A stretch of 64,000 nt of DNA from Amoebophrya sp. A120 (taxonomy: Eukaryota > Protista > Dinoflagellata): positions 2,265,923-2,329,922 of the forward strand of contig CAJINV010000014.1 of NCBI GenBank assembly GCA_905178155.1, in the 5' to 3' direction. The notes under the pieces were generated by a model. The model saw only the letters and a program-made list of their open reading frames with translations, searched no databases and had not been told where the DNA came from. Below, piece after piece: positions 3,374 through 56,906 of this stretch; position 1 is the first letter of the stretch; every line of letters starts with the position of its first letter. A program made the position numbers and the translations under genes.

Positions 3374-6300
3374 TCACACCTTCTGTTCCCGCAGCATCTT
3401 CAGCAATTCCTCCTCGATCTCCTTCACATTCTTATTTTCCTGCCCCACATTCTCCGCCTCGAGTTTGGCCACCGTCTTCTTGAAATCAGTGTCCGCCCGC
3501 TTTTGCCGGAAATCTGCCACCTCTTTCGCCACCTCGACGTCCCCGCCTCTCGATAGCTTGTCTGCTTCGATTTTTGCCGACGTGGTGCTGGTGCCATTCA
3601 CATCATCAGCTGCTACAACACCTTTACCGGTCGATTTCTTAAAGAAATCGTCTGCCCCCCGTAAAGCTGAGTACTTTTTGTACAGCGATAGGTAAAATTG
3701 CTCACTCTTCGCATTCTGCTCCATCGCGTCTGTTGTTGAAAACGAACCCGTAGTAGTTGCACCACCCCCTTGTGGTCGAGCCCCACTTTGACCACGCCCA
3801 CCACGGTCATCATCTGCCAAAGAACTAATTTCCGAGGGGTCTCCGGATAAAAACTTCCCGAGCCGCTCCTTTTTTCCGCCGAAGCAGTGGTTCAAAAGAA
3901 ATTGCTGTCGCAAATACTCAGCCGTAATTTTTCTACGCGGGAAGGCCTGGCCCCTGTGTGGAGATGAAGAGGCAGTGGCGGCGTGGTGTAGTTTCACCTG
4001 TCCTTGTTTTCCTGATCCCCCTTCGAATTGTTCACCTTTTATTCCCACAATCTCCCTCGGATCCCGGAAGCTTTCGGGTAGAATCAAAGCGGACGGGCCG
4101 TCTTTCTATCAACAGAAAAAAACCCTAACCCATCCACATCCATTTTTTGCATGACAAACACAGGATTTGATCTGATGTATGTTAATGCTTTGCATGACAA
4201 ATTGGATGCGGATGGGTGTTTTTTCCTGGATACTTTCGCCTGCAACCCAATTGCAGTCAGCCGCTTCCGAAACCGACGGCTGATATGGATTGCAAAAGTG
4301 TCTTGGTCTGGAAGAATGCAGGAGTTTTTGATGCAGATTTTGCGTGACCCATGAGGTCGGTGATGCATGCCCTAGCATCAGAGATTTTGCGAGGGCTTTC
4401 TGATGCTCATACTGCGTGAGAAATGCCCTCTCCGCGTAGCACAAATTGCACCTCTTTTGCTGTTCATGCAATACAGTTTTTATGTGGATTCCAAAAGTAG
4501 CATCACAAGTTGTATCCTTCCAGACCCAGACATTTTTACATTTGATAGCTGAGGGTCTCAAACGACTCGGACTGTTCGACCAGCAGTTTGTGCTCTTGGT
4601 TCAACCTCGCCTGGTTGTAGAGCTGCAGCACGTCCTTCTTGTAGTCGTACGAGGGCCTCGTGTCCGAGTCCGGGTTGGACCTGTGGTCATAGAGCGGCTC
4701 GGCGAAGACGGCGTTCATAATGTTAGATCGGAAGAGCGAGGAGATACTGCGGCTACTTGTTGTGCTGGATAATTGAGACGTAGACGCAGGCCGCGCGTCA
4801 GGTTTTGATCGGTCTGGAGCAGGGGGTGCGTCAACCTCCAGTTGCAGTGCTTGCTCAATGATGTCTTCATCTTCGTCGTCTAGATTTCGAGTGGGCGCAT
4901 CATCGCTTTCGTCTTCAACGTCAAGAAAGCCAGCGCCGGCTGTTTTGCGAGGTGGTAAGAAATTCCTGATTGGGCTGCTCCTGCTCTTCCGCGTCTCCAA
5001 TTCAAATTTTTCCATCCTGCCACTCATTCCGATTGCCCGCTTCAGCGATCCACCTAATTGTCGCTGCATTTTGGTCAGCCCGGTCAAGGAGCCAAGACCG
5101 TGGAGGGAGGTATTCGAGGTCGGGAATGTCGTAACGTTGTTGTAGATGTTGTTATTGAAAAACAGCGCGCTCTTCTGCAGGCTCTTCCGTGTACCGAAAA
5201 CGTTGTTACCCAGGGAGAGCAAATCGATATTGCTAGTGGCGCCTATCAGCTTCGGATCGGTAAGAGCGGCCAAGCGCTGCTCCAACATTTTTGCGTGGAC
5301 GGAGGCGGGGCCTATAACATCATGCGTCGTAGTTGATCTCGACGCTGTCGCGGTTTTCTTCTGCGGCTGCGCTCCCTCTGGACTGCTGGTCGCGTGTTCC
5401 CCCTCTCGGTTAAAGGTAAAGCTTTGGAGGTTTTTGTGATGTTGAAACAACGGCGATCGCTGCGGAAGCTCGTGATCACCACGTCGAAATTTCTTGGAAA
5501 CCGCACACTTCTTCTTGCTCCTTCTACTTGTTTCTGTGTCATCTTCGTCAATGACAGCACGACCACCTGTTGCATGTGCACTCGCCAAACTTTTTTGCAC
5601 GGCCAACAACAGCAATAGCCCGTGGTCCTCTGGTGCAACTCGGTTCGCGGCCCAGGGAAACAAGAAGTCGGCGAGCTGCGAATAGTCAGTGGCCCTCCGC
5701 CGGTGCGAGTCGTGCGCCTCGCCTCCGGCAGGGGAAGCGCCAGAAGAACTTCCTCCCCCGCGCCCTGTTGTCGCCTCCTTGTCCTCTTTCGGTTGATCTC
5801 TGTCTTCCAAACCCCTAAACACCGCCTCGACTCGTAGCAACCCTTGGTCTCGGGAAAGCAGCTTTAAGACGAACAGCATCGCGGCACAGACGGCCTCTTT
5901 CTCGCTTTCTGAAATCGGCTGCCCTGGCGCGTGTGCGTTCTTCTTCTCTCCGTCGTGTCCGCCTTTTACAGTCGCAGGGCTTCTAGTAGATGGCGCATGA
6001 AGCCGCGATCCAAGCTGCTTGCTAGCCTCCTCCTTTACCTCAAGAAATCGCAAGTCGAATACATCATCGAGAACATCACCAGCTGCGGCTGGAGGATCTT
6101 CTTGGTCGAGAGCCCCATCGCTCGATTTCAAGAAGATCCCGGGTGCTTGCAAGAACAGATCTCCGAGCGGGTAGGAGGTATGGCGACGCAGAGTGAAGGA
6201 GTCTGAGCCGGTAGTTTTTTCAAACCCGATTTTCTTCGTGGGAGATGCCGGAATTGAGGCCGGGTAGGGGTACTTGTTCTCGCCTTTGTTGCCGCTCGGT

Positions 6301-9300: not shown

Positions 9301-12300
9301 GAAATTGCCTCGACGTCCTCGTCCAAATCCCGACCCACGCGGCCGTTTGGAGGAAGTGCCACGACTTTCCATTCCAAAGACCCGGTCTCGGTGTTGAAGA
9401 TCTTCCGCGCCAATAATTTTCCGTCTTTGTCGTACCAACTGACCGCGTTTCCATCAGCGTCCACATCAATTTCTTCCACTACTTTCGCGGCCGCGGATAG
9501 GAGCTCTTGATGCGTATAACTTTGGCGCCGATTTTTCGTGTTATTTTGACCACCGGGCGGGGAAAATTCGCTTCCGCGCTGCTTCGACGCCCTCGTTCCG
9601 CTTTTCCGCTTCTTATTTCGTCTTGGCGAGTTCGGGTGGGGTTTCCTGTAGTCGTATTTTCGTCCTCCGACTCCGAGTCCCCTTCTGTTGCTTCTGCGAG
9701 TTTTATTTGTCGCCGTTTTCTCAACCTGATCTTCATCTCCACCTTCAAGAACAGTCTCATCGCCGCCGTCTTTTCTCCCACATTCAGCTCCATTTGTGGC
9801 CGCAGAGCTTTTTGATGACTTTCCCGAGGACGACGAGGAAGAGGAAATCAGCATCTCGACCGGTTCGGTTTGCGCGTTCGCAAAATCGTGCATCAGCTCC
9901 CAGTATGCAATACAAAAGTATCGCACTCCTGGTGACGCTTTGCTTTTTCTTGCTAGGTGAAAGTGATAGTGAACGACACATGATACAATTTGCCATGCGA
10001 ATGCAGCTCAAAATAGAGAAATCTCTTATGCAGAAGTATTGCAATCAGTACGAGGAGTTGTGCGAGTGCGACATCATTTTCGCATAGGATACCCAGAGTG
10101 GCTTCTGGTTCAACTTCGCCACAAACTCCGCTTCATCTTCGCAGGAGCTGGAGGAGAGGTCAAGGTCAACACGAAGATCGTCTGTTTTTCTCGTGGTTCT
10201 TGTTCTAGCCCTTTTCCTTTTCTGTCCTTTGTCCGCAGTGTCGTTGTCAGCCGTGCTCCCTTTGCTGATCCGCACTTCTCCCGCTTGCGAATTACTCGCA
10301 GCAGCAAGACTCGCGCGGCCTGGGTCGTCTTGCGAAGGTTTTGCTCCACGCTCGGCAGCTAATCCAGTTTTGTTTTTGCCGGTGTCATCACGCTGCAGCT
10401 CAGCAGCATCGTCCTTCCCCCTATCCAGCTGTTTGAGCGCGTGACCCAAGCGAAACTCAATCGCGTTCATGGCCTCCTTTACTGTCGGGAATTGCTGCTC
10501 GTCTCTCGCGCGCGAGGAACGGTCATCGGGAGAAGAGACTAGCTGCAGATCTTGATCTAGATGATCTTCATCGTTTCTTCCAACTTCACGATCATCAGTT
10601 TGACCAGCAGAGTGGTCCTTTCGCATCCAAAACGGCGGCTCACGGTCCGACGGCTCCTCTTCCACGACGCACTCGCTTTTCTCGCCCTTCTGGTCGTCAA
10701 GCTGATAGACTTCTTCTTGTACTAGCCGAGGTCGGCTTTGCCCCTCTACCAGCCTTTGCCCCCGAACAGCCGACTTGCCACTTGTTGTTCGTGTTCCTGT
10801 CACTTCCAAATCCAGATGCAGTTCTTCCCCCGAAGACGTTGCTGAGCTGCTATCGTAGACCTCGTCCAGAGGTTGGTGGTGATCCTGGTGCTGGTTCACG
10901 ATGTCTGGGTGAAGTTTCTCCCCCTTCGAAGAGCGGCCCAAGACGAGACTGTGCGTGAAGGCCTCCAACGTAGACGGATTACTCGTGGGCGGGACTTTTT
11001 CATTTTCTCGCTTCGTAGTTTGACCATCCTTTACCGTTTCACTTTCTTCTAATATCAGCGCCGGTTGATGAGTATTTCGCTCTCGCTGATGTAGATGCTG
11101 TCCCACTTCAAAGTCAACGTCGTCGCTGCTAGAGGTCTCTGCTTGCGCGATCGGGCTGGTTCTTTTCGGAAACTGACCAAGGCCAGAGCCGGCGACAGGG
11201 GCGGGCGCTGTTTTGCCATCCTGTACCTGTTCCCCAGAAACGTCTGCTCTCTCCGGGAAGAAAAGCAGACTTAGAGAACTTGGAGGGCGGCGTGCAGCAG
11301 GACCTGCAGCCTTACCTGCTACATCACAGCTTCTTGCGAAGTCGAAGAAGTTCCTGTCCTTGTTGAACACAGCAGGTCCCTTCGCCCTACACTTGGTAGT
11401 ACTTTCCTCCAGCTTCCTGCGCCAGCTCCAGCTGTGCACCTTCGCGGCCGCGTCTACGGGAATCGCTGGTGGGACCGAAAGTTCTTCTGTGCCCATAGAA
11501 ATTCCGGTCCGCGTCCTCGGCTGCATTTGCCGACGTCCCTCTCGTCGTGCCGCTGCCTTTTCATCTTCGTGTGCTCTCTGCGCTTGCTGTGTTCCTTGCG
11601 CTTGGGCTTGCTTTCTCCACGAACCAAATCCGCTCGAGATAGTCTTTATTTTCGTTTTTGCTGTTGACGTCAGTCGGCTCTGGAAAAAACCTGCCTGCTG
11701 CAAGTTGCTCGAGCAGGATTTTTGGAAGTCATCTTGTTGCTCGTCCCTCTTCACTTGCAGGTCCACTGGCGAGGACCTGTGCGTTCCCTCCTTCAACGTT
11801 TTCGGCCCGGCGGGGGCGTTGGCTTTAGTAGATGTCGCCCCTCCAGCAGAGACGACCACTTTCGCCTTCGCCACAGAAACTCCGCCCGCCGTTGATTTCG
11901 CAGACAGCTTCGCTTGCACAGGTGCAGCTGCTCCCGGCGCAGCAGTAGACACTCCTAGAGAAACGCTCGCTTTCGGAGCAAACACTCCACCCCCGGCCGT
12001 GGATCTCGCAGATGGCAACTTCGATGCACCAGCTGCCCCGGAAACTCCCGAAGCACCCGACCGAGCGCTACTTGCGCCACTTCTCCCTGTGCCTAATCCG
12101 CTGGAAAACAAACTGGTCACTTTAAGCCCGATCTTCGGCACAATCGATGACGACTTCGCGCCGGCCTTTTTTCCGGAAGTTCCCTTCGACGGTTGTTTTC
12201 CCTTTGCGGATGTGTTTTTTCCAGAGAAAACACTTTTTGCTTTCGTCGGCGGTTTTGCTGCAGCTGCAAACTGGTTCGCAGGTCCTCTGGCGGGTGGTGG

Positions 12301-25888: not shown

Positions 25889-26049
25889 TATCAAGCAAAA
25901 AAGTGTTAACGTTAACGGTTTTGAGGCATTGCTGTCATGCATGAGAAATTGCCGCTATCATGCATGCTATGCAATACAAATTTGGGCATCATTTCTCGTG
26001 CATTTCTGCATGCCAAATTCCGTTAACGTTAACACTTTTTGGTGTGATA
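25889..26049. mobile_element. Introner-like element (161 bp), host gene unresolved
   Basis: TIR TATCAAGCAAAAAAGTGTTAACGTTAACGG / CCGTTAACGTTAACACTTTTTGGTGTGATA, perfect TSD GTTGC. Confidence 0.88.
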
Positions 26050-26106
26050 GTTGCGCGCATTTTTGCATCGCCCACGCGGCCGCGGTACTAGCTGCACTCT
26101 GCTCGT

Positions 26107-26427
26107 TATCAAAGTGAAAAAAGCCCCCACCTCATATCGGAAACGGAAGATGCACGAATTTGTGATGCTGCATTTGAGTACACAAATCAACTTGTATTGC
26201 TAGAAGGCCAAGAGGCGAAGCTTCGGCCTAAATTGCAGGTAATCCGTCATGCTGTTTCCCACTTCCAGTTGCCTCCTGTCATCCTGGAGCTGCAAGGCTT
26301 TCCCACGCTAGACAGCACTACAGTCCGCATCTTTTGCCTTCTAGCATCACAAAGCTGATCTGTGACCACGAATCTGCATCACAGATTTCCGTTTTGATAT
26401 GGGGAGGGGGCATTTTTGATTGTAATA
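26107..26427. mobile_element. Introner-like element (321 bp), host gene unresolved
   Basis: About 40-bp imperfect TIR (TATCAAAGTGAAAAAAGCCCCCACCTCATATC vs TATTACAATCAAAAATGCCCCCTCCCCATATC), perfect TSD CTCGT, internal TTTGTGATGC and GCATCACAAA. Confidence 0.85.
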
Positions 26428-28574
26428 CTCGTCCAAGCGGTTTGGCTCGTCGTGGCAACGGATCCTCGCGTCCCACCGAGCAAACAGGTTGAGCTAGGTG
26501 ACGATGTAGTTGAAGGCGCGTAGACTGCAAATAAAATACTAATACACGATGACTAATATTGAAGCGAACTGAAACTAGATGATGCGAATTTATCTGGTAG
26601 TTGTGGATGATCCCCATAGTTTTTCTCTGCAATTTTCTGATTTTATTGCGATGTAGAAATTCTCTTGTATGATGTCGATGTGTAGTAATCCTCGACGACG
26701 ATGTGGCGGTAAGTGGAGCTGCAATTGTTGCGTTCCTGGTTTTGCATATGCGTTTTAACCCCAACACCGCCAGACGCTGCGCAAGAAGGCCGGCATGATA
26801 TTTCTCTCTCTTACCGACCATCCTACTGCTCACTCATAGACTGACACTGACATGACCGGACTCGTAAAACCTTCTTGCGCAGCCCGACGACACGAAAGTT
26901 AAAATCCATACTGCAAAAAGTCCTCCGGTGGAATGGTGATTCGTAATCGTATAGATGTTGTAGGTAGTTGCAAGCAAATGTGATCTTCGAGACGGGCAAA
27001 AAATTTTGCCGCTGAAGATATAGTTGTGGGAAGTATATCGAAGGCAAAAGAATATTCGTACATATCACGACAAATCAATTTGAAATGCCTACGATTTGTT
27101 ATGCCGAACAAAGCCCAAGCTGCGCGAGGTCGTCCACGAATGCATAGCAAATCCTGGCATTGCAAACTAATTGACTCAATGATAGACCATATTCCAAGTA
27201 CCTTATGCATAGGCGATAGTGAAGATGATGAAGATGATGATTTAGACTTTGATCATAGTAGATATTCTGCGTGCAGGGGGCAGCCGGTGCTGGCTCGGAA
27301 TGGTTTTCAGGAGCGCGGCTCGTAACGGGTGGAGTGGTTCGTCCGCCACACGTCACGTCCTCACTGGATCGAGAGCCGGCACAGCAGAACGTACTAGCAC
27401 AAGCCCAGATACAGGATCATGACTGCCAGTCCACAGTTTGCGGTGACGCTTATGGAAGGCAAGACGACACGGACCGTGAGATCAGTGCTTTGCGGTCAGT
27501 TGGCATGCGGAATAAAGGGTCAACAATTTTTAATATCAATGCGAATGATCATGCGAGGAATGGCGGGACGAAAATGGAAGATGGGAACGACAATCGTCCG
27601 CATGGCAACTGAATAAACCCGCAAAGATCACTGACGAGAGCGGACATTCGCAGGCCATAGTTTTGATGTTGTCGCGGCAGGGGCGGTAGGAAGAAATTAC
27701 TCACTTACTTGCAAAGCAACGCAGAAATACAAACTCAGTTCGTGCGGAAGGAAAAACTAAGTATGTTGTACTGGTGTAAATGACTGCAGAAAGATGAAGA
27801 TGTGATTATGACAAGCGTCTGGAGATGAAGAGGTCGTTTATTTTTTGTGTTGAATGCGAAAAGAAGATGAAGTAGATTGATCTAATTGTGCGAAGCTCGT
27901 GAATCTGCAATATGCCGCTGGAAGAACTGCAAGTTGAAGTTCTCGTCGATGAAAGTGGTGTGCTCGTCTCCGCAGCGGCCTTGATGAAAAAGAAGTTCGC
28001 GAATTTTCGTATACAGAGGACTTTTCCCAGATACTACTTGTTAGAACTGTGGGTGCTGCAAGCTCCATGAAGTACTTCTGCTCGTGTCGTGCAAGCTCGT
28101 GTAGCTACAACTGCTCGATGAATGTAGTTGGTCGGCTTTAACATCATGCTGCATCATCATCATGCTCTGGTGACCACTTCGGAAGAAAACAATCGTGATC
28201 GTGACAACTCCGAATAAAATGCAACTCCATGCTTCAGCTCTAGTGATGTCGAAGGAAATTACGTCGTGTTGATCATGTGCTGACACTTTTACGTCGTGCT
28301 CCTGGATGAAGGATTTACAGAAACCGGACGGAAATTGAAGAAAAACCCCTGGCAGATGATGTGATTTTTGAAGATGAAGATATTACGAAGATACCCGTTG
28401 TACCGCAGCAGGACTGGAAGGATGATGTTGAACTTGAAACCGGAACCGCAGGAAATACTGAAGCTCACGCTTGGTCGTGTCGGTATGGTTCTTGTTCTGC
28501 TCCAGGTCCTGGTCCTTTCACGACATGTAGTCCTGCACAATCTTCTGCTCTACAGCTGCTTCACCTCCTGTTCT

Positions 28575-33574: not shown

Positions 33575-36500
33575 CTACAGGTCTGGATTTGACGACTCCA
33601 TCAGGCCACTTGGCACGCTGCCCAGCATTGCATCACCTAGAATAAACTGCTGGTCCCCGAGGTTGTTGGAGTTGGTCGTGTCTGCTTCGCCCAATTTGTT
33701 GCGATACTGCGCCAACAGATCCGCGAACGAGGCCGACAAGCGATTCATCTCGATGGAAGAAGAGGTAGAAGAGGCAGATGATTCCGATCCACCTGCTGCC
33801 CCATTTCTGCTCGCACCGCTCGAAATAGATGTAGTTGCTCTACCGGGGGAAGAAGAGCTGCCAGCAGCCAAGCTGTTTCTCATTTCTTCCAGGTTTACAA
33901 AAGCGCTAGACGCTTCCTGCAGGGCCGTTTCCATCAGTAGCAACCGGCTGGAGTTGGAGGCGGTAGTGCTATTTGCCGTGGCCGTGCTCACCGCGGCCAG
34001 GGTGGGCGACAGGCCCTGCTGCAACGCACTGAAGGTAGAATTCAGCCCGGCTAGGGAAAGCAAGGAAGTACTTGCCACCGCGGTGGGGCTGCTCTGGGCA
34101 AATTCGGCGGACGTGGGCTCGTAATCCAGGGCCAACTGCGTCGCGGTTTTGGAATGAATGGGAAGATTTTTTGTTTTCTACACATTTATATTTTTTGATG
34201 AAAGACATAGTTAGACATCATCTGGAGAGACAAGCACGTAGGTAGACAAAAATCGATTTTCAAAAAAACGAACCTGCTCCGGCTGCGGCATCTCGAAGAC
34301 GAGCTTCTGTGCCCCGACTTCCTGCAGAGTGTAGAGCCATTTGAGCAGTAGCGTTTGCTTGGAATTGTTGTACTGCATGGTGTCTGCACCCGTCACAAAC
34401 GCATCTCCGAGCTGCTCCGTATCATACTGAATCAGAATCGCCTGGGCCACCTTCTGCAGCAGTGTCATCTCGGCATTGCGCAACGCTGCATGAAGCAGCC
34501 GATCGCGCTCGACCTAACGATCATTTGTCATTATACGTGATTCTTGTCATGTAGTGGTCAGTAGCCAACCCAATGATCATGCGATGTCGCCATAAATGCA
34601 AGTGAGTATCAATCTTGTTCGGTACTATCGCAATTTCATTCAACACAGTCACAGTCAGCTGTAGCTGTACTCAAGAATAAACACGACAGCAATTTATTTC
34701 CTTTATTTTTACCTTCGCCACTTCCACCTTCGTCAGAGCGTCTATTTCAGCCGTTTTGCGTATGCATGCGAAATTCTGACTATCACTTTTTCGCGACCGG
34801 CCTTCAAACTTCTAGAGCGACTGGTACAACTTTGATCATGCAGCAGATGCTCGATCGTGATGGATACTTTTCAACGACGAGTATGAGGCAGACGCAAACT
34901 ACCTTGCTCATGCATCGTGACATCAAAGAACTACTACATCGGGACGTCGAAACCTTGCAGGAGTGTAGAATATGGATGCTGTACGCCAGTCTACATACTG
35001 GTGCTCCTGTCCCTGTCGAATTTATTGGATTGCAAAGATCTCATGCGCATGCCAACTACGAGGAAGAACATCTCGACAGATAAAGAATTTCCGCATGGAT
35101 ATCTTTGGCGAAAATCGCGGCTTCTTTGGCCTGTCGTGCCAGTTCCGTGTCTTGGATGGCCGATTCCAGGCCCGTGGGCAGCTGCACCGCGACCAGCGAC
35201 ACCCGGTGCGTGGTGCAGTTCAGCGGCAGCAGAGAGGTCGTCACGCGCTGCTGCATCAACTGGCCGATGATCTCCCGTTTGGTGTAAAATTCCAACGCGT
35301 TGTGCTGGGACACCTCCGTGCGAATGGCCGCGGCAATGGACGCCTGCACCAGCCCCCGCCAGTTCTCGTCCCCGGTAGTTTCGAACAACCCAAACAGGGT
35401 CTCCTTCAGCTTATGGCGTTCTCAGCTGTTACACTCTCAACTGTTAAGTACATGGATTTGTGATGCTAAAACAACTGCAAGAATGGGAAACGTGAAAGGG
35501 AGGAGATTGCGCCTGTAGCATTACAAATTCCGCACAGATTTAGGCGCTGTTTGGCCCTAGGCAGATTTGTCGTGCGAAGCAGCTTGATCGCGTGGATGAT
35601 GTTGGTGCTTTTGCATGACAAATTCATGTAACAGTTGAGAATGTAACGTTTGAGAACCCCATACAGCTGGTCGCTCACTTGCGGAGCGTCGGACTTGTCG
35701 CCCAACGTGTTGTCGCGGCCGAGCCCCAGGGAGATGCCGGCAGCCGCTTCCACCTGGATGATCAAACCCTCGTACGACCGGCAGGGAAGGGTTTGCGCCT
35801 TGACCACAAAGTTTTTGCCCACCAAATCCGCGTCTTCGGCGGGCATTTGGCCCGCCAGACAGGGCGTGCAATCCTCGGCGCCGGTTTCGCACTCGTCTGC
35901 AAGGTCGCAATCTTCTTCCTCGGTGCCGCCTAGAACGTGTGGGAGGGAAAGCGAACGTGTTGGAGTTGCCAATCAATGCAGCAGCAAGAAAGGCCTCTGA
36001 AGAAGGCATTTTTCGCGCTTCATTACACTACAACTTTTGAACCTTACCTTTCGTAGAAAAAGCGCGGTGCTTGCCCACTTATCAAGATTATTACCTCCGT
36101 ATTCATTTTGGATGAAATAAAGCACAACACTTCCGCTTCCACTTCGATACAGGCCTGCTCTCGTCCATGAAGCTGAAAATCCTCGTATCAAACCAAAAAT
36201 GTGGCAACGACATTTTTTTGTCGTGGTCGTGGTTTCAGTATCACGACGAGGATATCGTCCACTGCTATAATTCTGCATGAGATGAAGCTGGTGCATCATG
36301 TCGTTCACGGCTAGCACCACAAATTCATCTGCAAAAAATGCCACCAGATTTTTGGCTGATACATTCGATTCGCGGGAAACTTCTTCCATTCGTGGCCGAG
36401 ACCTGTGATGAGGTGTAAACATAAAATGTGTTTGGCGCCATTTGTGTGGAATTTGCCATCGCCGATATAGCCAGCAAAAAGCATTTTCCCATTGGTGCAA

Positions 36501-37681: not shown

Positions 37682-39485
37682 TCACCCCGCCGGCGTCGCG
37701 GTGGCCGCACTTGGTGCTTCGGGCATGATGTACTCCATGAGCCACTTTGGCGGAAAAGACTCGTACACCAGTCGCAAGAACCTCGTCAGCGTACCCGGGC
37801 CTGAATCGGGGAGCAACGGTTTCACGGGGTTTTCCAGCACAGGGTTGAGCCAGGTCGTTTTCTCACATAACGTCTCCGGGATCACGCTGAAAGATGTTCA
37901 CGTACACTTCTAAGGATGACAAACAGACTTTGAAGACAGACTTTGCCCTTCTCATGCATGGTCATGTTCATGCGCCATCATAACTGAACGATGAAGAAGA
38001 AGAACAAGCGAGGAAAAGTAAAAGCAGTGATGCGAATGTTTTACCCTCCCGACGCCTCTTCCACGTTTTCCAGCACGTAAGTCTTGGCTTCCTCCTCCGT
38101 CATCCCCCGCGACGCCACCAGACTGTCAATCGCGGCCTGCAGTTCCGGCTTGATTTCCTTCTTGTCGGTCCCGCTGACGCCGTTCAGCTGCTTGATAGTC
38201 ACCTCTATGGATGTGTCAGGATCGAAATCAACAAAATCGAAATAATTTGTGATGCATAAGATCGATACCAGTTGGAGCCTCAGTTTCCAAGTGGTGCATG
38301 ACAAATTTCGGGAGCACCAAAGTCCAGCCTGTCATGCTGTTTCGGCAAAGAAGACTGCTCCTGTCATGCTTCTCTGGAAGCGCATCGTCTTCCCTAAACA
38401 GGCTGGCAATCGGTCTCATTTGCCTGCTCCCCAATACAGGCCATATGTGCCCTACATTTTATGCATTACAAATTTTTCGACTCTGTCGATTTCGATCCTG
38501 ACACATCCATAACCTCCGCGTGGGAAATAAACTCCCCGTAGTCGTTCCCCACCGGCTGACAGGAATTCGCGCAGAACTCGTTTTATCAAATGTAAAAGTG
38601 TCTGGGTCTGAAAGATTGCGAGATTTGTCATGCTTGTCTAGGATGACCAAAAAGTTTGTGATGCGTGTCCAAGAAGAGACCCTTTTGCCTGTCATGCAAA
38701 AACGCAGTTTGTCATGCGAAAAACGCAACACAAAGAAGCGCAGATATTTCTCATGCTTGGCTGTGCATTACAGAGCATTTACAATTCCCAACGCAGCATT
38801 ACAAGTTTTCAGACCCAGACATTTTTACATTTGATACGTTTAACGTGATCTGCTTGGAAATGGGGAAGTTGATCCCCACCTGCAAGGCCAACGCCGGCTC
38901 GATGGTGCAGTACGGCCGTAGCGGGTCGGACACCTGGCAGCTCAGCGACTCCGCTTTGAACCGACACTCCATGCGCGTCTCGCCGTCAAAGGTCGGAATC
39001 GACTCACCGCGACAGCAATCGGCGCAGCGACAAAAGGGAAAAGAATTCAAGTCAACCGTTTCCATCAGGAAGGTTTTTGCCGCGACGTTTTGGATTGGTC
39101 GTGTGAGGAGTAATGGACTTAGAGAGGCGAGAAAACTACAAAAGGAGTAGGAGTAGCTTGATCGTGGATGTACAGCTCTTGTTTTCTGGTAGTTTTTATC
39201 CTGATGCTGATCTGATCGTCTCGCAAGACCCTGGGTTTTGCTCCGCACTCCTCGGACGTCTCCATTTTTGTGAAGCGTCGACTTCAGCAGGCGCCGATCG
39301 AAGCCGAAACTGCAAGAGGCACTGCAGGTCGCCGAGACATGCCGACGTGTTCTTCGCAACGCGCCTGCAGCTAGTACGCGTCCTCGTCTACTAATCGAGG
39401 TGCCTGCACATGTCGACGGCGAGCTCTTGGAGGACAACATGGTAACTATTGTTTTTGATGTTCGCTCAGTCCCTATCATGGTCAT
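37682..39485 (-). CDS. Cys-rich (CxCxxCC...FCxxxC) protein, probably secreted or membrane-targeted; 4 exons
   Basis: Reconstruction ...CRCADCC...QITLN|EFCANSCQPVG...HAEV|TIKQLNG...EASGG|VIPETLC. Two introners (38584, 38206) and a GT-AG intron at 37887-38044. Start and extreme 3' end uncertain. Confidence 0.75.
38206..38511. mobile_element. Introner-like element (306 bp), family C
   Basis: Perfect 24-bp TIR TATGGATGTGTCAGGATCGAAATC, perfect TSD ACCTC. Homologous to the reverse complement of 54510-54817. Confidence 0.93.
38584..38836. mobile_element. Introner-like element / non-canonical intron (253 bp), family B
   Basis: TIR TATCAAATGTAAAA(G/A)TGTCTGGGTCTGAAA, perfect TSD CGTTT. Homologous to the reverse complement of 52715-52962. 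Confidence 0.93.
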
Positions 39486-40078: not shown

Positions 40079-41202
40079 TCAACGCCGAAACCCAAACGCT
40101 TCCGCCGCGTACGTCACAGCATCGTTGTAGTCCGGTGCTTTCAGTCCCGTGTGCTGCAGTTCGTTAACCTCTTGCGCGTCCTCATTGTTGATGCACGTGG
40201 CCTGCGGGGTGGCTCCGCCGTTGCCGGGAGAAACTAAGAATGGAGGAAACGAGGTTATCATTTGAACATCAAAAGCTATGCACGTCACACGAACGCATCT
40301 TCGAATATGAGCAACATGAAGAGTTCATCAGTTTCTAGAAGACGAAAAGCAAGCTGAAGAAGCTTCTTGAACAAGCTAATCGAGCCGATGCTAGCAAAAA
40401 TCTTCGCTCGCAACGATTTCTAAGCATATACCACTGCCTCCCTCGATGTAGGCATTGTTCAACCGCGTCCGCTATCCTGAGTAAAAACGTCCCCACGCCA
40501 GAGTTGTAATGCAGATTTCGAAAGACAGGAAGACTTGTAATGCGCATACCCATGAGAGCCATTTCTACTCGTGTTTTGGAACTTGTGATGCTGTGAACAG
40601 GATGAGCAGATGAATCTGTGATGCGGCTGCACTTGCTAACCTGCACTACAGCACAGCAGAGCGCAACTTGTCATGCGTGACTCACAAAACTCCTAGGTTT
40701 GTGTTGCAAAATCCCCATCCTGACTCTGGCGTGGGTACGTTTTTACTCAGGATATCCGCTGCGCGTTCGACGTTCCGCCAGCGGCCGGCACGCTGCAGTA
40801 GCTGGCGCAGTACTGGTCGTAGTCCGTGGCCGTTGTGGTCGCCCAGGACCCCGCGCTCACTTCGGTGCAAGTGGCCTGTTGGCACTGACCGGTCGGCTCC
40901 CCGTCTTCGTTGTTCGCCTGGTCTAAAGTGGTCAAATTGATCCGGCGACAAGTCAACTTCCGGTGCACTTCGGTCACGATGCAGCACCCGCAACTGCACC
41001 CATCCTGCGCGATGTCGTAGATCTCATTGGCAAAAATGTTCCTCGTCTTCTGCAGTTTCTTCTGCGCTCTACTTGCCGCGCGGTGTAGGGAGAGGTGCTG
41101 CTGCAAATTGACAGCGGTCACAGCTACCGGGAAATGAGCAGCGAGGTGGGAAGATACCAGATGAACCAGAACCATCCGCCAGATGAGGCGAAAAGGAGAC
41201 AT
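40079..41202 (-). CDS. Secreted Cys-rich protein (CSCGCC...YCASYC), 3 exons
   Basis: Signal-peptide-like MSPFRLIWRMVLVHLVSSHLAAHFPVAVTA. Introner at 40473-40754 and GT-AG intron at 40234-40431. Junctions NAQR|TRLNNAYIEGGS|VSPGNGG are in frame. Confidence 0.78.
40473..40754. mobile_element. Introner-like element / non-canonical intron (282 bp)
   Basis: Near-perfect 32-bp TIR TATCCTGAGTAAAAACGT(C/A)CCCACGCCAGAGT, perfect TSD TCCGC, several internal TTGTNATGC. Confidence 0.93.
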
Positions 41203-47540: not shown

Positions 47541-47595
47541 CTCCAACAAAAATAAGGTCAGCATTACAGTAATGCTGACCTTATTTTTGTTGGAG
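47541..47595. repeat. Perfect palindrome, 27-bp arms, 1-nt loop
   Basis: CTCCAACAAAAATAAGGTCAGCATTAC-A-GTAATGCTGACCTTATTTTTGTTGGAG. Confidence 0.95.
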
Positions 47596-47655
47596 AAGAT
47601 CATACATGCAAGCAATGCTAGTAATTTACTAGCATTGCTTGCATGTATGATCTTC
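47595..47655. repeat. Perfect palindrome, 30-bp arms, 1-nt loop
   Basis: GAAGATCATACATGCAAGCAATGCTAGTAA-T-TTACTAGCATTGCTTGCATGTATGATCTTC. Confidence 0.95.
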
Positions 47656-48175
47656 ATCATCTGATATATCGAACGAACTGTGTACTTACCATCCACAGCC
47701 TCTCTTCCTCTTGCAGAGCTTTGCATTGTTTCACGCGTGGGATCCAACTAGTGACTGAAATAGCGCCACGCAAATTTACAATAAGGCTTTCCGTGGCATC
47801 CCTACGTGAAGAACAGTCAGTGAGCGTAAGCATGATCAATTTCCTGGCGCAATTGAAACAGGCGTCGACTTTTGCTTTTCTAATGTTTGCATAATTTTAT
47901 AGTTGAGTCGTGTCACCAGAATTTTGATTTTCAAACTGCTCATAGATGTTTTTTGATACACTTGCGCAAAAGGTCTTGGTGGGTGCTAGCGAATGACTCC
48001 GGTGCTATAACTTTGCTTGGTGCTACTGCGTGGTCTGCGTATTTTTCAACTCTTCAATTCAGTGAAAGCATTGTAGTACTAGGAGCCTCCAGCTACAAGA
48101 GTTTATTCGGAAGTTTTGTCTTGCGAGGAGAATCATCATGCTCGTTCTTCTATCTTCTTGTTCTTCTTCACTTTC

Positions 48176-51842: not shown

Positions 51843-54800
51843 TCACGCCCCCATCACCAGCTGCGCTTTCGGGAAGATCCTCTCCACAAATCCCGCGTCC
51901 GCCTTCGACAGTTTCGAGTTTTTTTCGTCGTTGGACTTCAGCAACTTCTTCTGCAACTCCGCGTCACCGCTGGCCGCTGACAGCACCTGCGCGCAAAACC
52001 TGGCGACGTTGGACACCGAGTAGCAAATCGCGTTCGAGGAGCCAGGCGGGTTGGTCAGGCACGTGTGGTTAATGAGACCGTCCGGGGGGCAGGAGACTAC
52101 CGGGAACTTCGAGTGGAACGAAGCGGTTCCCGACAACGCGTCCGTACCTCCAGCGCAACCAACAATGATACAGGGCTGCTCCGAACGATTGTAGCTGAGA
52201 GAGGTTTTATTGCAGATGTTAAATGCTATCATGGAGTTCAACTTCATCTTGTAAAATAAAAATTGTATAGGCGAAATGCGTAGTGTCTACGTACATACTC
52301 TAGAACTAGAAAATTCAAACACGCAACACAACAAAACGAAGCACGGACTGAGTGAATAACATGAACATTTTCAGAAGGTGGAGCAGCTGCCGCTGCATAG
52401 AAGGCATTCATACATACTCATACTACCTTTTCAAAGCATCTTCCAACTTGCCCGGCTGTTTGTGCGCCGAGCAAATCCGGGTGTGCACCGCCTTGAGGCC
52501 CTGCTTCTTGCAGCTCTCCTCGATTTTCGCCAAATGGGGCGCGTCGGAATCCGATCCCGCCATGATCAGCACGACGCCGGTGCTCAACAGCTTCGCCGCC
52601 TGGAGGTTCTTGATGACCCGCTTGGCCGACGCGTTGCTGCTGCCGGTGATACTGGATGCGAACAAATCAAAGGGGAACTCCTTCCCAATGATCGTTTCGT
52701 AGACCTTGATGTACTATCAAATGCAAATATGTCTGACTTGTGATGCAAGTCAGTGAACAATAAGTGAACTGTCATGCGCAGCCAAGCATGACAAGTTTTT
52801 TCGTGCTTCTGTGATGCGCATTCCGCATGAGAAAGTGCGTTTTTGCATGACAGGCGAGAGAGGCTGTTCGTGGCCAGCACGCAATACAGAGTGCAGAGTC
52901 ATGCCAGACTAGCATGACAAAACCTTGCAATCTTCCAGACCCAGACATATCTGCAGTTGATATGTACCGGTAGCTGCACTCCACGATCTGGGCCGGGGAC
53001 AAACTGATTTCTATGACAGTGCACAACTCCCCCTCCCCGTCATTTGTCATGCAAAATACCAAATCCAGACTGTGTTTCTTAGCACTGTTTGCATGACAAA
53101 CTCCGGAAGCCCAAACAGCACTACACTCCTGTGGAAATAATTTGTCATGGAAAACCGGCATTCTTACTGACCCTTGTATTGCTTTTGCTGTTCATGCTAT
53201 ACAAATGAGGGGAAGGAGGAGTTGTGCACTGTCATAATTTCGTCCGCGGATTCATTCCCCGTGAACCCCATGTCGAGCAGGCAGTCGCGCACGTACTGTT
53301 TGCTGTATTCTTTGATTTTGTACTTGCTGAAAATCTCACTCGCCGGCATGGTCTTTCCCTTCACCGCTTCGTCGATCAATTTCCATTTCTTCTCGTACTC
53401 TTCAATGCCGCATATGCAACGGAAATTTCAATTTATTCATTCCGTGCACGTACTAATGCTATTTCATCCGCAACATGGCACCACTTTTATCTTTTTCGTA
53501 TGCAGCATACGAAAAAGATAAAAGTGGCATCGCATGCTTTAGGTTCGGAAAATTTGCATCTGCCGTGCATTTGTACGTGTGGGGTGAAATAAAATTGAAA
53601 TTTCTATTGCATACCGCACATCCGAGAGCTATCCGGCGTGTTCACTTCGTCAATCACATACAATTCGTTTGTCTCGTAGTCCAAACCGAATTCGTACTTC
53701 GTGTCGATCAGAATCAGCCCCTTTTCTTTCATCTTCTCGGATCTATCCTGTGCAAAAGTATCGTACTCGTACTAATTGCCATTATGCATGACAAATCTTG
53801 TCCTTAAGGTAAAACAGCATGACAAATTCCAGCTCTCACGCTGAGCAAATTTGTAATGCAATTTATACTAGTACGATACTTTTGCAACGCATAGGATCCG
53901 CGCTGGAACAATTTCATCGAGATGTCCTTCACTTTTGCGGCCAAATCCACTCCGATCAATTGTTCCACCTCGGCCATGGTCATGTTCTCGTCGTGCCCCA
54001 CCTCCGCCTTCGTGGTCGGCGTGAAGATCGGCTCGGCGAGTTTCTGGTAGCGGACCAGCCCGTCTGGAATCTTCAACCCGCAGAAGTCCCGATCCCCCTT
54101 CTCGTACGCCTTCGCCATGGAACCCCAGAGATAGCCGCGGACGATGCACTCCACCATCAGATTCTTCATTTTCTTCTGCACGACGACCGCCGGGTCGGGG
54201 GCGGGGGTGATGAGCGCGTTGGGGATGATGTCCTTGGTCGCGTCGAACGCCCATTCGGAGATCTTGTTCAACACGAACCCCTTAAAGGGGATCAAATTGG
54301 GCAGCACGTGGTCGATATCCTGTGCAAAAGTATCGTACTAGTATAAATTGCATGACAAATTCTGGCAAGAAGGAAAGTCAAATTTGTAATGCTGTTTTGC
54401 CCTAGGAAAAATATTTGTCATGCATATCTGCAATTAGTACGAGTACGATACTTTTGCACAGGATAGTCGAACGCAGAAACCCGGTCGTTGGTCACCATCA
54501 CCACGCTCTTATGGGGGTGTCAGGATTGAAATCGTCAAAAAATGGTTTGTCATGCACAAAATGCAATACAAAAAGTGACTCTATTGCAGAGGACGCACGG
54601 GAGGCAGATTATAGTCCTGGTAAGGGTCTTTCAAAAGTTGGACGGCTGACTAGCATGACAGAAGGTAGCTCTTTTGCCCTAAACTGCGTGACAGACTCGC
54701 TTCCAGGACCGGGAAAATTTGCCATGCACCGACTACAAACTGTGGGTCTAACTGGTATCCGTTTGATGCATGGCAAATCATTTCAACTTTGACGATTTCA

Positions 54801-56906
54801 AACCTGACACGTCCATAGTTCTCGTTCTGGAAGTAGATGTCCCGCACCTTTCCCTTCTTCGCCTCGCCCCACTCCGGGATAAACACCGCGTCCACTTCCG
54901 TTTTGTTCAGAAATTCGCTGTGGATCTTTTGCTTGTAGAGGGTTTCTTTATCCTTGATAGTACCATCGCCGTCTTTGTCGCTCGTCGTTTCCTTCGAGGT
55001 CGCGGCGGTGGAGGTGAAAAAATCGTTGTCCACCGCTTTCGTGCACGACACAGAGGGTTTCACATCCGAAACAGCAGTACTGCCCGTGGCGAACACCGGA
55101 CACAGGCGCGCATCCGCGTCTTCCAAGGACTTCACCTTTTTCGCGTTTTCGCTGCTCAAAAACTCCCCGATCTTCGGCTCCTTGCCGGAGAACATCTGCA
55201 GGCAAAACCGCGCGCAGTTTCCCGGCTTGCCGCAGAAGGCGTTGCTGCTGCCCGGCGGGTTGATCGTGCAGGTTTTGTTTTCCAGCCCGTCCGGGGGACA
55301 GGACACCACCGGCCAGATGGACAGGAAGGACGCGGTTCCGGACAAGGCGTCGGTACCGCCGGCACAGGCGATGATGCAGATCATCTGGTCGGTATCCAGG
55401 AAAAAACACCCATCGCCATCCCCATCCATGTTTTGCATGACAAACACTGGAGCTGATGCATGTTTTGCATGACAAATTGGATGGGGACGATGTGTTTCTG
55501 TTTTTTTTTTTTTGTGGATAGTCGGAGGTATTGTAGTACTTCAACACCTCGCCGAGCTTCTTCGGCTGCTTGTGCGCGGAACAAATCCGCACCTGCGTGG
55601 AGATGTTGTGCTTCGCGAACGATTTCGCGAACTCCTTCTGCAGTTTCTCGATGTGCGGCGCGTCCGAGTCGGACCCGGCAAAGATGCAGGCGAGGCCAGA
55701 CGAGAGGTACTTTTTCGCGACCAAATTCTGCAACAGCCGCTCCTTGGGCGACTTGTTGATCACCTGCGCCTTGTCCGGTAACGGGAACTTCTTGCCCGTG
55801 ATCTGCTCGCAGACGTCGATGTAGCGCTTCGCGCACTCCAGCACCTGCTCCGGCGTCAATTCGATCGCCTTGGTGGCGGTGGTAGGGTCGAATCCCATTT
55901 CCAACAGCGTGTCCCGGACGTACTGCTTCGAGAACTCCTTCACCTTCAACTTCGGATGTTCCTTCAGCAAGGCGGACACAGAGGGGTAGTCCTTGATCTT
56001 CGGTTCGATCAGCTTCCACTTCTCCTCGTACTCCGCAATGCTGCACAGACGGCTGCTGTCCGGCGTGTTCACTTCGTCGATCACGTGCAGCTTGCCGGTC
56101 TTGGGGCAAATCCCAAACTCGTACTTCGTGTCGATCAAAATCAGCCCCTGCTTCGCCATCGTCTCCTGGCCGCGCTTGAACAGCTTCATCGAGATGTCTT
56201 TGACCTGATGTAGTTTTTGCGCCATGTACTTCTAACAGCGACTTCTTGTTGATGCAGTTGTAGGTAGGACCACGTAGTCAGAGCCGACTTGTTATTTCTT
56301 TTTCGAAATTCCTAAACTCCTGCTTTATCATTTTACATCGTAGGATGACAAAATCTTGAGCATCGTGTGCTCCGTAGTTCCTACCTGCGCCGCCAAATCC
56401 TTCCCGATCAGCTCCTCCACTTCCGCCATGGTCATGTTCTCGTCGTGCCCCACCTCCGCCTTCGTGGTCGGCGTGAAGATCGGCTCGGCTAATTTCTGAT
56501 ACCGCACCAGCCCGTCCGGGATTTTCAACCCGCAGAAGTCCCGATCCCCCTTCTCGTACGCAGCCGCCATGGAACCCCAGAGATAGCCACGGACGATGCA
56601 CTCCACCATCAGATTTTTCATCTTCTTCTGCACGACGACCGCCGGGTCGGGCGAGGGGAGAACGAGGGCGTTGGGGATGATGTCCTTGGTCACCTCGAAC
56701 ATGTGCTCGGAAATGGTGTTCAGCACCTGGCCCTTGAACGGGATCAGATTCGGAAGGACAAAATCGAACGCGGACACACGGTCGTTGGTAACCATGACAA
56801 CGTCATCCTCCTGGAAATAAATGTCGCGGACCTTGCCTTTCTTCGGAAAACCCCACTCTGGCAACACCACGGCGTCGAGGCCGTAGTTTAGGAAAGACGC
56901 ATCCAT
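51843..56906 (-). CDS. PAICS: Tandemly duplicated SAICAR synthetase / AIR carboxylase fusion (PurC-PurE-PurC-PurE, ~1068 aa), 10 exons
   Basis: PurC motifs [66 protein letters not shown] and PurE motifs GSDSD, SAHK, PVVSCPP each occur twice. Exons approx. 56906-56385, 56204-55521, 55387-54818, 54504-54466, 54310-53894, 53738-53614, 53407-53237, 53006-52963, 52709-52427, 52194-51843 sum to 3207 nt. Two GT-AG introns (56205-56384, 52195-52426) and seven introners. Confidence 0.95.
52715..52962. mobile_element. Introner-like element / non-canonical intron (248 bp), family B
   Basis: TIR TATCAA(A/C)TGCA(A/G)ATATGTCTG, perfect TSD TGTAC. Junction CSYRY|IKVYET. Confidence 0.93.
53012..53236. mobile_element. 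Introner-like element / non-canonical intron (225 bp)
   Basis: TIR TATGACAGTGCACAACTCC with further similarity inwards, perfect TSD ATTTC. Junction SADEI|SLSPAQ. Confidence 0.93.
53413..53613. mobile_element. Introner-like element / non-canonical intron (201 bp)
   Basis: TIR TATGCAA(CG/TA)GAAATTTCAATTT, perfect TSD CCGCA. Junction DSSRMCG|IEEYE. Confidence 0.93.
53744..53893. mobile_element. Introner-like element / non-canonical intron (150 bp), family D
   Basis: TIR core TGCAAAAGTATCGTACT, perfect TSD GGATC. Junction FQRGS|[10 protein letters not shown]. Reverse-complement homolog of 54316-54465. Confidence 0.94.
54316..54465. mobile_element. Introner-like element / non-canonical intron (150 bp), family D
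   Basis: Perfect 24-bp TIR TATCCTGTGCAAAAGTATCGTACT, perfect TSD GTCGA. Junction VSAFD|HVLPNLIPF. Confidence 0.95.
54510..54817. mobile_element. Introner-like element / non-canonical intron (308 bp), family C
   Basis: About 30-bp TIR TATGG(GG/AC)GTGTCAGG(A/T)TTGAAATCGTCAAA, TSD GCTCT/GTTCT (4/5). Junction YFQNEN|VVMVTNDR. Confidence 0.92.
55393..55520. mobile_element. Introner-like element / non-canonical intron (128 bp), family A
   Basis: TATCCA...TGGATA ends, perfect TSD GTCGG. Junction YYNTSD|[11 protein letters not shown]. Confidence 0.93.

What the first reader, a model, noticed from the sequence alone, without database searches (positions are those of the whole stretch)
53744..54465. 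Same-family introners sit in opposite orientations, twice within one transcript
Seen: 53744-53893 aligns along its length to the reverse complement of 54316-54465. Both are exactly 150 bp and lie about 420 bp apart in the same gene. Likewise 38206-38511 vs 54510-54817 and 38584-38836 vs 52715-52962 are inverted relative to each other, although all hosts are minus-strand. Inference: excision is orientation-independent, so a fixed directional branch point, polypyrimidine tract or ribozyme core inside the element is unlikely to be required. The symmetric TIR stem is the likely signal.
Basis: partly seen in the sequence, partly recalled or inferred. Interest (0 to 1): 0.8.

Follow-up and report, generated by a model that had tools for sequence, protein, structure and literature searches.

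The report
Introns that splice either way round
Small jumping-DNA copies sit inside the genes of a marine parasite (Amoebophrya A120) equally often forwards and backwards, and they are missing from the likely-RNA assemblies either way round, cut at one fixed position relative to their mirror-image ends; this gives a testable rule for a splicing process whose machinery is still unknown.

Summary
All three pairs align in opposite orientation, and interiors alone give z 20-48 against 2-5.5 on the same strand. The host protein is identical to an Amoebophrya sp. A120 SAICAR-synthetase/AIR-carboxylase protein. The elements are the published A120 introners: TAT...ATA inverted ends with a 5-bp target duplication.

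Not found in the texts read:
(1) No orientation bias. In the 150-bp family, 34 copies face one way and 37 the other relative to the host gene.
(2) Likely-RNA contigs lack the element plus one duplication copy, in both orientations. DNA contigs keep the element.
(3) One cut register fits 13 of 13 junctions: 1 nt before TAT and 4 nt after ATA, with no GT/AG. All nine commonest published A120 non-canonical sites start N-T, as this predicts.
(4) At equilibrium the two inverted 150-bp copies should pair with each other and skip an in-frame exon, yet each is removed separately. Pairing is therefore likely local and co-transcriptional.

An interior directional signal is unlikely, but the symmetric ends can carry directional signals, and spliceosomal introners that work in both orientations are known. 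The machinery is untested.

The parts
53744..53893 (.). 150-bp TIR element (TAT...ATA), 5-bp target duplication GGATC. Intron on the minus strand at the inferred register is 53740-53894.
   Evidence: Exact P0001.
54316..54465 (.). Second 150-bp copy of the same family in the opposite orientation, duplication GTCGA. Inferred intron 54312-54466.
   Evidence: X3 and X6 contigs bridge 54310 to 54818 with 39 letters, as predicted.
53744..54465 (.). Composite formed by the outer ends of the two inverted copies (20/20 TIR match, no shared duplication). It is predicted to be the most stable fold, but it is not the unit removed in the listed contigs.
54510..54817 (.). 308-bp element, duplication GCTCT/GTTCT with one mismatch, which limits the cut to register (0,5) or (1,4). 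Opposite to 38206-38511.
38206..38511 (.). 306-bp element, duplication ACCTC, in a minus-strand gene
   Evidence: joint 38200|38512 in X4 and X6
38584..38836 (.). 253-bp element, duplication CGTTT. Opposite to 52715-52962.
   Evidence: joint 38578|38837 in X4 and X6
52715..52962 (.). 248-bp element, duplication TGTAC
   Evidence: 45 letters predicted and observed across this and the next element
53012..53236 (.). 225-bp element of another family, duplication ATTTC
53413..53613 (.). 201-bp element, duplication CCGCA. Spanned unbroken by a DNA contig at single-copy depth.
   Evidence: X1 record 3, 53207-53768, depth 39.7, against 41.6-45.8 for the other window contigs listed
55393..55520 (.). 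128-bp element, duplication GTCGG
   Evidence: X3 and X6 contigs join 55387 to 55521
51843..56906 (-). Host gene: 1068-aa protein with two SAICAR-synthetase/AIR-carboxylase units; seven TIR introns and two GT-AG introns (52195-52426, 56205-56384)
   Evidence: Pfam PF01259 and PF00731; 100% identity to a protein named Amoebophrya sp. A120 by its source; exact spliced match
27036..27211 (.). Older element with fully diverged duplication; junction unambiguous: 1 nt + TAT...ATA + 4 nt. Partly retained in X4.
27451..27659 (.). Older element with diverged duplication and decayed TIR; junction unambiguous (1,4)
26747..26910 (.). Element whose duplication differs at position 5; excludes register (0,5)
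34761..35101 (.). Older element; allows (0,5) or (1,4)
35938..36149 (.). Degenerate element ending ACA; allows (1,4) or (2,3)
25889..26049 (.). 161-bp element, duplication GTTGC, downstream of a minus-strand ORF (likely 3' UTR)
26107..26427 (.). 321-bp element, duplication CTCGT, same transcript
35412..35663 (.). 252-bp element, duplication CAGCT
40473..40754 (.). 282-bp element, duplication TCCGC
4107..4232 (.). 126-bp element, duplication CTTTC; same family and orientation as 55393-55520
   Evidence: no reads laid here
4284..4547 (.). 264-bp element, duplication GCTGA
   Evidence: no reads laid here
9904..10091 (.). 188-bp element, duplication CCCAG
   Evidence: no reads laid here

Best explanation
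These are miniature inverted-repeat transposon copies (TAT...ATA ends, 5-bp target duplication) that sit in either orientation inside genes and are missing from likely-RNA contigs together with exactly five flanking bases; they are likely cut from the pre-mRNA 1 nt before the first TAT and 4 nt after the last ATA, most likely by a modified, U1-less U2-type spliceosome guided by a locally folded hairpin of the two ends. Steps: (1) A DDE transposase inserts the element without regard to strand (inferred from TIR + 5-bp duplication; the lack of bias is shown). (2) As the gene is transcribed, the first arm pairs with the nearest matching arm (inferred). (3) The 5' cut leaves N-U-A-U at the intron start. 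U+2 and A+3 are the canonical 5' splice-site positions, here without G+1 (register shown for the window; recognition inferred). (4) The 3' cut is measured 4 nt from the stem base and needs no AG (register shown; ruler inferred). (5) Since 1+4 = 5, the pre-insertion sequence is restored at any target site, and since both arms read TAT(C/G) inwards, either orientation works.
For: RNA-level removal: X3/X4/X6 contigs lack 18 of 18 TIR elements in the two stretches laid (16 window-type and older copies). They also lack GT-AG introns, which supports their being RNA. A DNA contig spans 53413-53613 unbroken at single-copy depth. Orientation: 190 distinct elements in 115 loci of one assembly and none in 27 unrelated loci. 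The strand model was right on 14 of 14 confident window calls, and 38 of 39 neighbours agreed. The 150-bp family is 34:37 among 71 of 109 host-called copies (p 0.81, 95% CI 0.36-0.60), and nine smaller families are all mixed. Frame restored in 62 of 62 testable copies. Farhat Table S4 lists nine predominant A120 non-canonical sites, all N-T..., and nine A25 sites, all TT..., where the IR starts TTA. So both strains put U at +2 and A at +3, and 5 of 6 canonical introns in the window start GTA. There is no selection for GT or AG: 3 of 124 copies read GT..AG. Both orientations fold an end-to-end stem. U1 was not detected in A25/A120 while U2, U4, U6 and nearly all spliceosomal proteins were; an Amoebophrya with canonical introns keeps U1. 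Fritillaria removes TIR-derived non-GT/AG introns with its U2 spliceosome.
Against: Nothing here tests the catalyst. TAT may be invariant only because the transposase needs it, and my catalogue required TAT(C/G) at both ends. There is no excess of G at intron +5 (66 G: 73 C at 5' ends, 69: 71 at 3' ends). A long stem ending 4 nt from the 3' cut leaves no obvious single-stranded branch site; YTRAY occurs in the last 60 nt of only 6 of 34 and 2 of 37 copies. TIR positions 4-7 are often unpaired (48-86 of 140 Watson-Crick), and G.U is not favoured over A.C once position 21 is left out (47 vs 40, permutation p 0.5), so selection on an RNA stem is not shown. Old copies with weak stems (z -2.6; +1.2 for the whole element) are still removed. 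The runs are only guessed to be RNA, are contigs, come from one study, and may underlie the window's own annotation. The 34:37 count has no RNA support and rests on a coding model. All informative junctions have minus-strand hosts.
Confidence: 0.55

Rival explanations
1. Same RNA-level, end-defined removal, but by a spliceosome-independent machine like the unknown one for euglenid nonconventional introns, or an endonuclease plus ligase. It would cut on both sides of the stem base with a 1/4 stagger and release a linear or circular intron.
For: No conserved terminal dinucleotide. Short motif, stem and fixed spacers parallel the Euglena code N3CDG...CH'GN5-6|R, where circular products are reported. 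No branch-site consensus in either orientation. Interiors are interchangeable in direction.
Against: U+2/A+3 is shared by A25 and A120 although their TIRs differ. The spliceosome is present and U1 is reported missing, which suggests the spliceosome itself changed. The Fritillaria precedent is spliceosomal.
Confidence: 0.3
2. The two ends are brought together by a protein that binds the terminal or sub-terminal sequence (TAT-N4-TGCAAAA, GCATGACA repeats), for example a transposase-derived factor on the DNA or the nascent RNA. The hairpin is then a by-product of the TIR.
For: Equilibrium folding predicts cross-pairing of the two 150-bp copies (p about 0.999), which is not what is removed. No general G.U excess. 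Copies with decayed stems are still spliced.
Against: The interior GCATGACA-type motif is absent from 5 of 5 older spliced copies, so it is not needed. Co-transcriptional folding explains the local choice without a protein. The weak-stem intron 27032-27212 is partly retained (contig depth 343 vs 778 spliced in X4).
Confidence: 0.1
3. The elements are excised from DNA in some life stage, like ciliate internal eliminated sequences, and the mRNA simply reflects edited DNA.
For: TIR + target duplication with scar-free removal and no strand bias is what DNA excision would also give. DNA was laid from one run of one sample only.
Against: The DNA contig spans an element unbroken at single-copy depth. 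A retained-intron contig stands beside the spliced one in the same run. The cut is asymmetric in one direction: (4,1) is excluded in 5 of 6 informative junctions, and the published sense-strand sites start N-T. A symmetric DNA reaction would not follow transcription.
Confidence: 0.05

Closest known systems
Amoebophrya A120 introner elements (Farhat et al. 2021, PMC7789003; read: abstract, sections 10, 11, 12, 16, 19, passages, supplement passages with Tables S4, S5, S7, S8; figures not seen)
   Same: These are those elements: IR starting TAT and ending in a run of A, direct repeats of 3-5 nt (5 bp in the Fig. S19 legend), non-canonical ends, RNA-seq support, proposed hairpin. The host protein is identical to an A120 protein.
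   Different: The text read does not treat element orientation. It calls splice sites variable relative to the hairpin and the border unknown (Fig. 3 legend). Here there is one register (1,4), no orientation bias, and evidence for local pairing.
Polarella glacialis and Aureococcus introners that work in both orientations (Roy et al. preprint 10.1101/2020.10.14.339549, passages; Huff et al. 2016 not held, known only through that preprint)
   Same: TIR/TSD elements that form introns in either orientation and restore the mRNA.
   Different: Those use GT/GC/GA and AG taken from the element or the duplication, need particular target sequences, and, for the classes where it is stated, show an orientation bias. 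Here any 5-mer works, 3 of 124 read GT..AG, and the split is even.
Euglenid nonconventional introns (Nomura et al. 2025, PMC12501133, abstract and passages; Guminska et al. 2018, PMC6221363, passages; review PMC11282704 section 6)
   Same: MITE-like origin, terminal inverted repeats, direct repeats at the junctions, fixed spacers between the paired motif and the cuts, no GT-AG. The closest functional analogue.
   Different: The motif is CDG...CH'G with spacers 3 and 5-6 and a purine at the exon start; here it is TAT...ATA with spacers 1 and 4 and no strong requirement seen at the first exon base. Unrelated lineage.
Fritillaria borealis non-canonical introns (review PMC11282704 section 6; preprint 10.1101/2025.08.15.670264, passages; Henriet et al. 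2019 not read)
   Same: MITE-derived introns with TIR and TSD, removed by a changed U2 spliceosome.
   Different: They have preferred ends (AG-AC, AG-AT). Here only +2 (T) is fixed among the four terminal bases.
Ginger/TDD-type DNA transposons, as a lead for the mobiliser (PMC2836005 passages; PMC12130899 passages)
   Same: TIRs; TDD-4/5 make 5-bp duplications; an A120 introner family with TIRs and an LTR-related ORF is reported.
   Different: Ginger termini are TGTNR, not TAT, and most make 4-bp duplications. That A120 family is said to lack Ginger termini. No transposase was sought here.

Membership tests
Amoebophrya A120 introner elements | IR begins TAT, about seven variable bases, then three or more A | tested here: met
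   Terminal profile of 140 elements: TAT, variable 4-7, TGC, A at 11-14 in 123-134 of 140 (TAT itself was a search criterion)
Amoebophrya A120 introner elements | 3-5 nt direct repeat over the exon/intron border | tested here: met
   5-bp repeats at 16 window elements, 15 perfect; 190 more
Amoebophrya A120 introner elements | Repeated in families; removed from RNA; non-GT-AG | tested here: met
   Families; removal in likely-RNA contigs; registers
Amoebophrya A120 introner elements | Host organism A120 | tested here: met
   100% identity to a protein named Amoebophrya sp. A120 by its source
Canonical-site introners (Aureococcus/Polarella type) | GT/GC/GA 5' site and AG 3' site from the element or the TSD | tested here: not met
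   3 of 124 GT..AG at the register used; AG at -2,-1 in 12 of 124. Unambiguous junctions read CT..CT and CT..CG.
U2-type spliceosomal introns | Branch point and lariat intermediate; snRNP dependence | not testable with these tools
   Only contigs were available. The YTRAY scan was weak in both orientations.
Euglenid nonconventional introns | N3CDG ... CH'GN5-6|R code | tested here: not met
   Ends are N-TAT ... ATA-N4
Euglenid nonconventional introns | Paired ends with fixed spacers to the cuts | tested here: met
   Stems fold in both orientations; fixed (1,4) register
Euglenid nonconventional introns | Release as full-length circular RNA | not testable with these tools
   No raw reads of this organism were laid; X9 gave 0 reads
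Ciliate-type internal eliminated sequences | Joined form exists as DNA | tested here: inconclusive
   The one DNA run laid keeps the elements, but contigs drop rare forms, the joints table was cut, and other stages were not seen
Ginger transposons | TGTNR termini | tested here: not met
   Termini are TAT(C/G) against TGTNR
Ginger transposons | Integrase-like DDE transposase in an autonomous partner | not tested
   No genome held; no autonomous copy sought

The most novel reading that the evidence does not exclude
Amoebophrya A120 has a general transposon-neutralising splicing code, N|N-TAT...ATA-NNNN|N, run by a machine that needs no G+1, no AG, no branch point and no interior signal. It reads only the two paired ends as they emerge from the polymerase and measures 1 and 4 nt, matched to the 5-bp duplication of the invading transposons. 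Any copy, at any target and in either orientation, is then removed without a scar by a chemistry distinct from lariat splicing.
Probability: 0.3. Interest if true: 0.9.

Novelty: new variant of a known kind. Interest (0 to 1): 0.62.

Why it matters
More than 60% of introns in Amoebophrya A25/A120 are non-canonical, U1 snRNA was not found, and the published work leaves both the borders and the mechanism open. A fixed cut rule (1 nt before TAT, 4 nt after ATA) tells annotators where the real borders are and tells experimenters which bases to change. The even split of orientations removes interior signals from the candidate list. The inverted pair in one transcript is a natural test of local versus most-stable pairing. 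If the rule holds, it explains how tens of thousands of insertions were tolerated: the spacing of the cuts matches the length of the target duplication. The elements themselves are already published, and introners that work in both orientations are known elsewhere, which limits the score.

Tried and rejected
- TA as the target duplication (Tc1/mariner or ciliate TA-IES style): leaving one TA breaks the frame; element + 5 nt restores it.
- Depletion of 3n lengths: 1 of 16 in the window, but 40:44:56 in 140 elements. Rejected.
- Selection for G at +1, AG at the 3' end or G at +5: none.
- G.U over A.C as a sign of RNA-stem selection: 78 vs 50 in TIRs against 219 vs 239 in interiors; 70 vs 46 with permutation p 0.03, but 47 vs 40 (p 0.5) without position 21. 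Not general, and post hoc.
- Using the 25 duplication mismatches of the assembly copies to find the register: uninformative without RNA.
- Orientation classes as separate subfamilies: the nearest neighbour is of the other class in 39 of 66 copies. Rejected.
It is baited on one family; 66 of 190 elements had no strand call and 62 of 124 were untestable for frame.
- No RNA holder is listed on record. Raw-read run X9 laid 0 reads, which is no test.
- Huff et al. 2016 was not held.
- Look-ups of earlier findings by sequence, by place and by the first word set were empty.
Full report
1. Observation. The two 150-bp segments align at 83% (126/151) in opposite orientation and at 64%, with many gaps, on the same strand. 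The other two pairs behave the same way. The ends are self-complementary, so I compared interiors only (35 nt trimmed from each end). Opposite-strand scores were 20-48 standard deviations above shuffles and same-strand scores 2-5.5.

2. Anatomy. A scan for TA...TA segments with inverted ends and flanking repeats gave 24 hits in the window against 1-4 in five shuffles. Sixteen are separate elements of 126-321 bp that begin TAT, end ATA and sit between 5-bp direct repeats (15 perfect, one 4/5); the others are nested or composite pairings, or likely chance. Leaving one TA does not restore the reading frame; removing the element plus five bases does. The host at 51843-56906 on the minus strand encodes two SAICAR-synthetase/AIR-carboxylase units. 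Its exon query is 100% identical to a 1068-aa protein named Amoebophrya sp. A120 by its source, and the spliced model reproduces that protein exactly. It aligns to the A25 orthologue without gaps at five of the six insertion sites displayed, with a one-residue gap near the sixth. The duplicated upstream unit of the same gene lacks these elements and is collinear in the five stretches compared. A motif of the type TGTCATGC/GCATGACA lies in 136 of 140 catalogued elements, and 46 of its 57 window matches fall inside them. I infer it is a transposase-binding repeat, since 5 of 5 older spliced copies lack it.

3. Removal is from RNA. Eleven runs were listed, none on record as an RNA holder. Contigs of X3, X4 and X6, guessed to be RNA, skip GT-AG introns, which supports the guess. 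They also skip all seven elements of the host gene and the eleven TIR elements between 25.4 and 41.4 kb, each with five extra bases. For 52715, 53012, 53413, 53744, 54316 and 54510 the joints were not listed and removal rests on contig lengths, where predicted and observed lengths agree exactly (234, 45 and 39 nt). In X1, one contig spans 53413-53613 unbroken at depth 39.7, against 41.6-45.8 for the other window contigs listed. Limits: these are contigs, the likely-RNA runs come from one study, one DNA run was laid, and the data may underlie the annotation.

4. Orientation at scale. No genome is held. Of these, 115 come from one assembly (JACKZZ01 contigs) and hold 190 distinct elements; the 27 other loci hold none. 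A coding model trained on window genes called the right strand for 14 of 14 window elements with a clear margin and agreed for 38 of 39 neighbouring pairs; 66 of 190 elements got no call. Interior alignments gave ten families with no inconsistent orientation edge. The 150-bp family has 109 members, 71 with a host strand: 34 one way and 37 the other (p 0.81; 31:28 on element-level calls only). The nine smaller families read 6:8, 4:7, 2:5, 2:2, 2:2, 1:3, 2:1, 2:2 and 2:1. Where both flanks gave a clear frame, the frames agreed after removal in 62 of 62 cases, 17 and 20 of them in the two orientations of the big family (62 were untestable, and the strand call favours such agreement). These copies have no RNA check.

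5. Where the cut falls. Perfect duplications hide the junction, but six elements have diverged copies. Their joints allow: (1,4) only, twice; (0,5) or (1,4), twice; (1,4) or (2,3); and (1,4) to (5,0). The numbers are bases before TAT and after ATA on the sense strand. Register (1,4) is the only one common to the 13 junctions tested. Three of the six, including the two unambiguous ones, lie downstream of a minus-strand ORF (29024-28578) that has a 63% homologue. They appear to be in a 3' untranslated region, so frame selection would not have set their register; the strand there is inferred, since contigs do not show it. Independent support comes from Table S4 of Farhat et al.: the nine predominant A120 non-canonical sites are GT-AC, CT-AG, AT-AG, GT-CG, GT-AA, CT-AC, AT-AT, AT-AC and TT-AG, all with T second. 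The nine A25 sites all start TT, and the A25 repeat starts TTA. Both strains therefore have U at +2 and A at +3, as do 5 of 6 canonical introns in the window. The target 5-mer shows no selection towards G at +1 or AG at the end.

6. Is the stem the signal? Both orientations fold an end-to-end stem in the young copies (z -3 to -15). Three results qualify the simple reading. First, positions 4-7 of the arms often do not pair. Second, wobble pairs are not generally favoured over A.C mismatches. Third, on the full transcript the two inverted 150-bp copies are predicted to pair with each other (probability about 0.999; -335 against -271 kcal/mol with pairing limited to 200 nt). That would define a 727-nt intron and skip 417 nt in frame. 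The listed contigs keep that exon and lose each copy on its own (rare skipping cannot be excluded). If pairing matters, it is likely local and co-transcriptional: the copy transcribed first has a 20/20 arm match of its own. One weak-stem intron is partly retained (343 vs 778 in X4), a single point in favour of the stem.

7. Mechanism. Shown: structure, both orientations, loss of element + 5 nt in likely-RNA contigs, and the register in the window. Inferred: insertion by a DDE transposase; local pairing of the arms; a 5' cut before N-UAU and a 3' cut 4 nt past the stem. I favour a modified U2-type spliceosome (0.55), because U+2/A+3 is kept in two strains with different repeats, U1 is reported missing while U2, U4, U6 and most proteins remain, and Fritillaria offers a precedent. 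That U+2 and A+3 are contacted in the spliceosome's active site is recalled, not from a call. Rivals are a Euglena-like or endonuclease/ligase route (0.3), protein bridging of the ends (0.1) and DNA excision (0.05).

8. An interior directional core is unlikely. A directional signal is not excluded, because each arm offers TAT(C/G) at a 5' end and (C/G)ATA at a 3' end whichever way the element lies, and introners that work both ways with ordinary sites are reported in Polarella and Aureococcus.

9. Novelty. The elements are the A120 introners of Farhat et al. 2021. In the sections and supplement passages I read, orientation refers to genes, and the splice position is called variable or unknown. 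Figures 3, 4 and S19-S25 were not visible and may show part of the register. Gozashti et al. 2022 and 2025 (passages; section 7 of the 2022 paper) mention opposite-orientation insertion only as a method point, or A120 families without it. Searches found no paper on orientation or a fixed register in Amoebophrya. The library lacks most subscription papers, among them Huff 2016; I did not read Henriet 2019 or the final Roy 2023. Other papers seen as passages: PMC11453091, PMC12005148, PMC2836005. Verdict: a known element class with unreported, testable rules; interest 0.62.

Noticed in passing
150-bp family, TIR position 21 (window 53764/53873 and 54336/54445; loci L002-L142): A T-to-C variant (read inwards) lies almost only on the arm that is the intron's 3' arm in the transcript. 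The left-arm variant alone is in 15 copies of one orientation vs 2 of the other; the right-arm variant alone in 8 vs 1. This gives U.G 23 times and C.A 3 times. It was picked post hoc; selection on pairing, a needed U near +22 and a strand-specific mutation are all open.
   Followed up: partly
window 25400-29312: A transcript with very high contig depth in X4 (about 1200) carries a 149-aa minus-strand ORF (29024-28578, 63% to an unnamed EukProt protein) followed by about 3 kb without a clear ORF that holds five TIR introns.
   Followed up: partly
window 27032-27212: This intron is partly retained in X4 (contig depth 343 unspliced vs 778 spliced); its stem is weak.
   Followed up: partly
window 51843-56906: The purine-synthesis gene is an internal tandem duplication (two SAICAR-synthetase/AIR-carboxylase units, 1068 aa), also seen in A25 (1093 aa), while most listed relatives are about 500 aa. 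Six of its seven introners sit in the second unit.
   Followed up: partly
window 53481-53527: A 23-bp perfect palindrome arm pair inside element 53413-53613.
   Followed up: no
window 47536-47668 and 46610-46685: Clusters of overlapping near-perfect palindromes that are not TAT...ATA elements.
   Followed up: no
window 45351-45394 and 46696-46739: A 44-bp direct repeat at 93% identity.
   Followed up: no
window about 3.4-12.7 kb, minus strand: An open frame of 2946 codons after removal of three elements; the protein was not identified.
   Followed up: no
window 4113-4221 and 55397-55497: A same-family pair in the same orientation (78% identity).
   Followed up: partly
all catalogued elements, TIR positions 4-7: These four bases vary widely and differ between the two arms of one family (TATCCTG vs TATGCAT/TATGAAC), between an invariant TAT and a conserved TGCAAAA, like a spacer between a cleavage site and a binding site.
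   Followed up: partly
L067, L074, L075, L077: Up to eight elements within 3.6 kb, separated by exons as short as about 40-60 nt.
   Followed up: no
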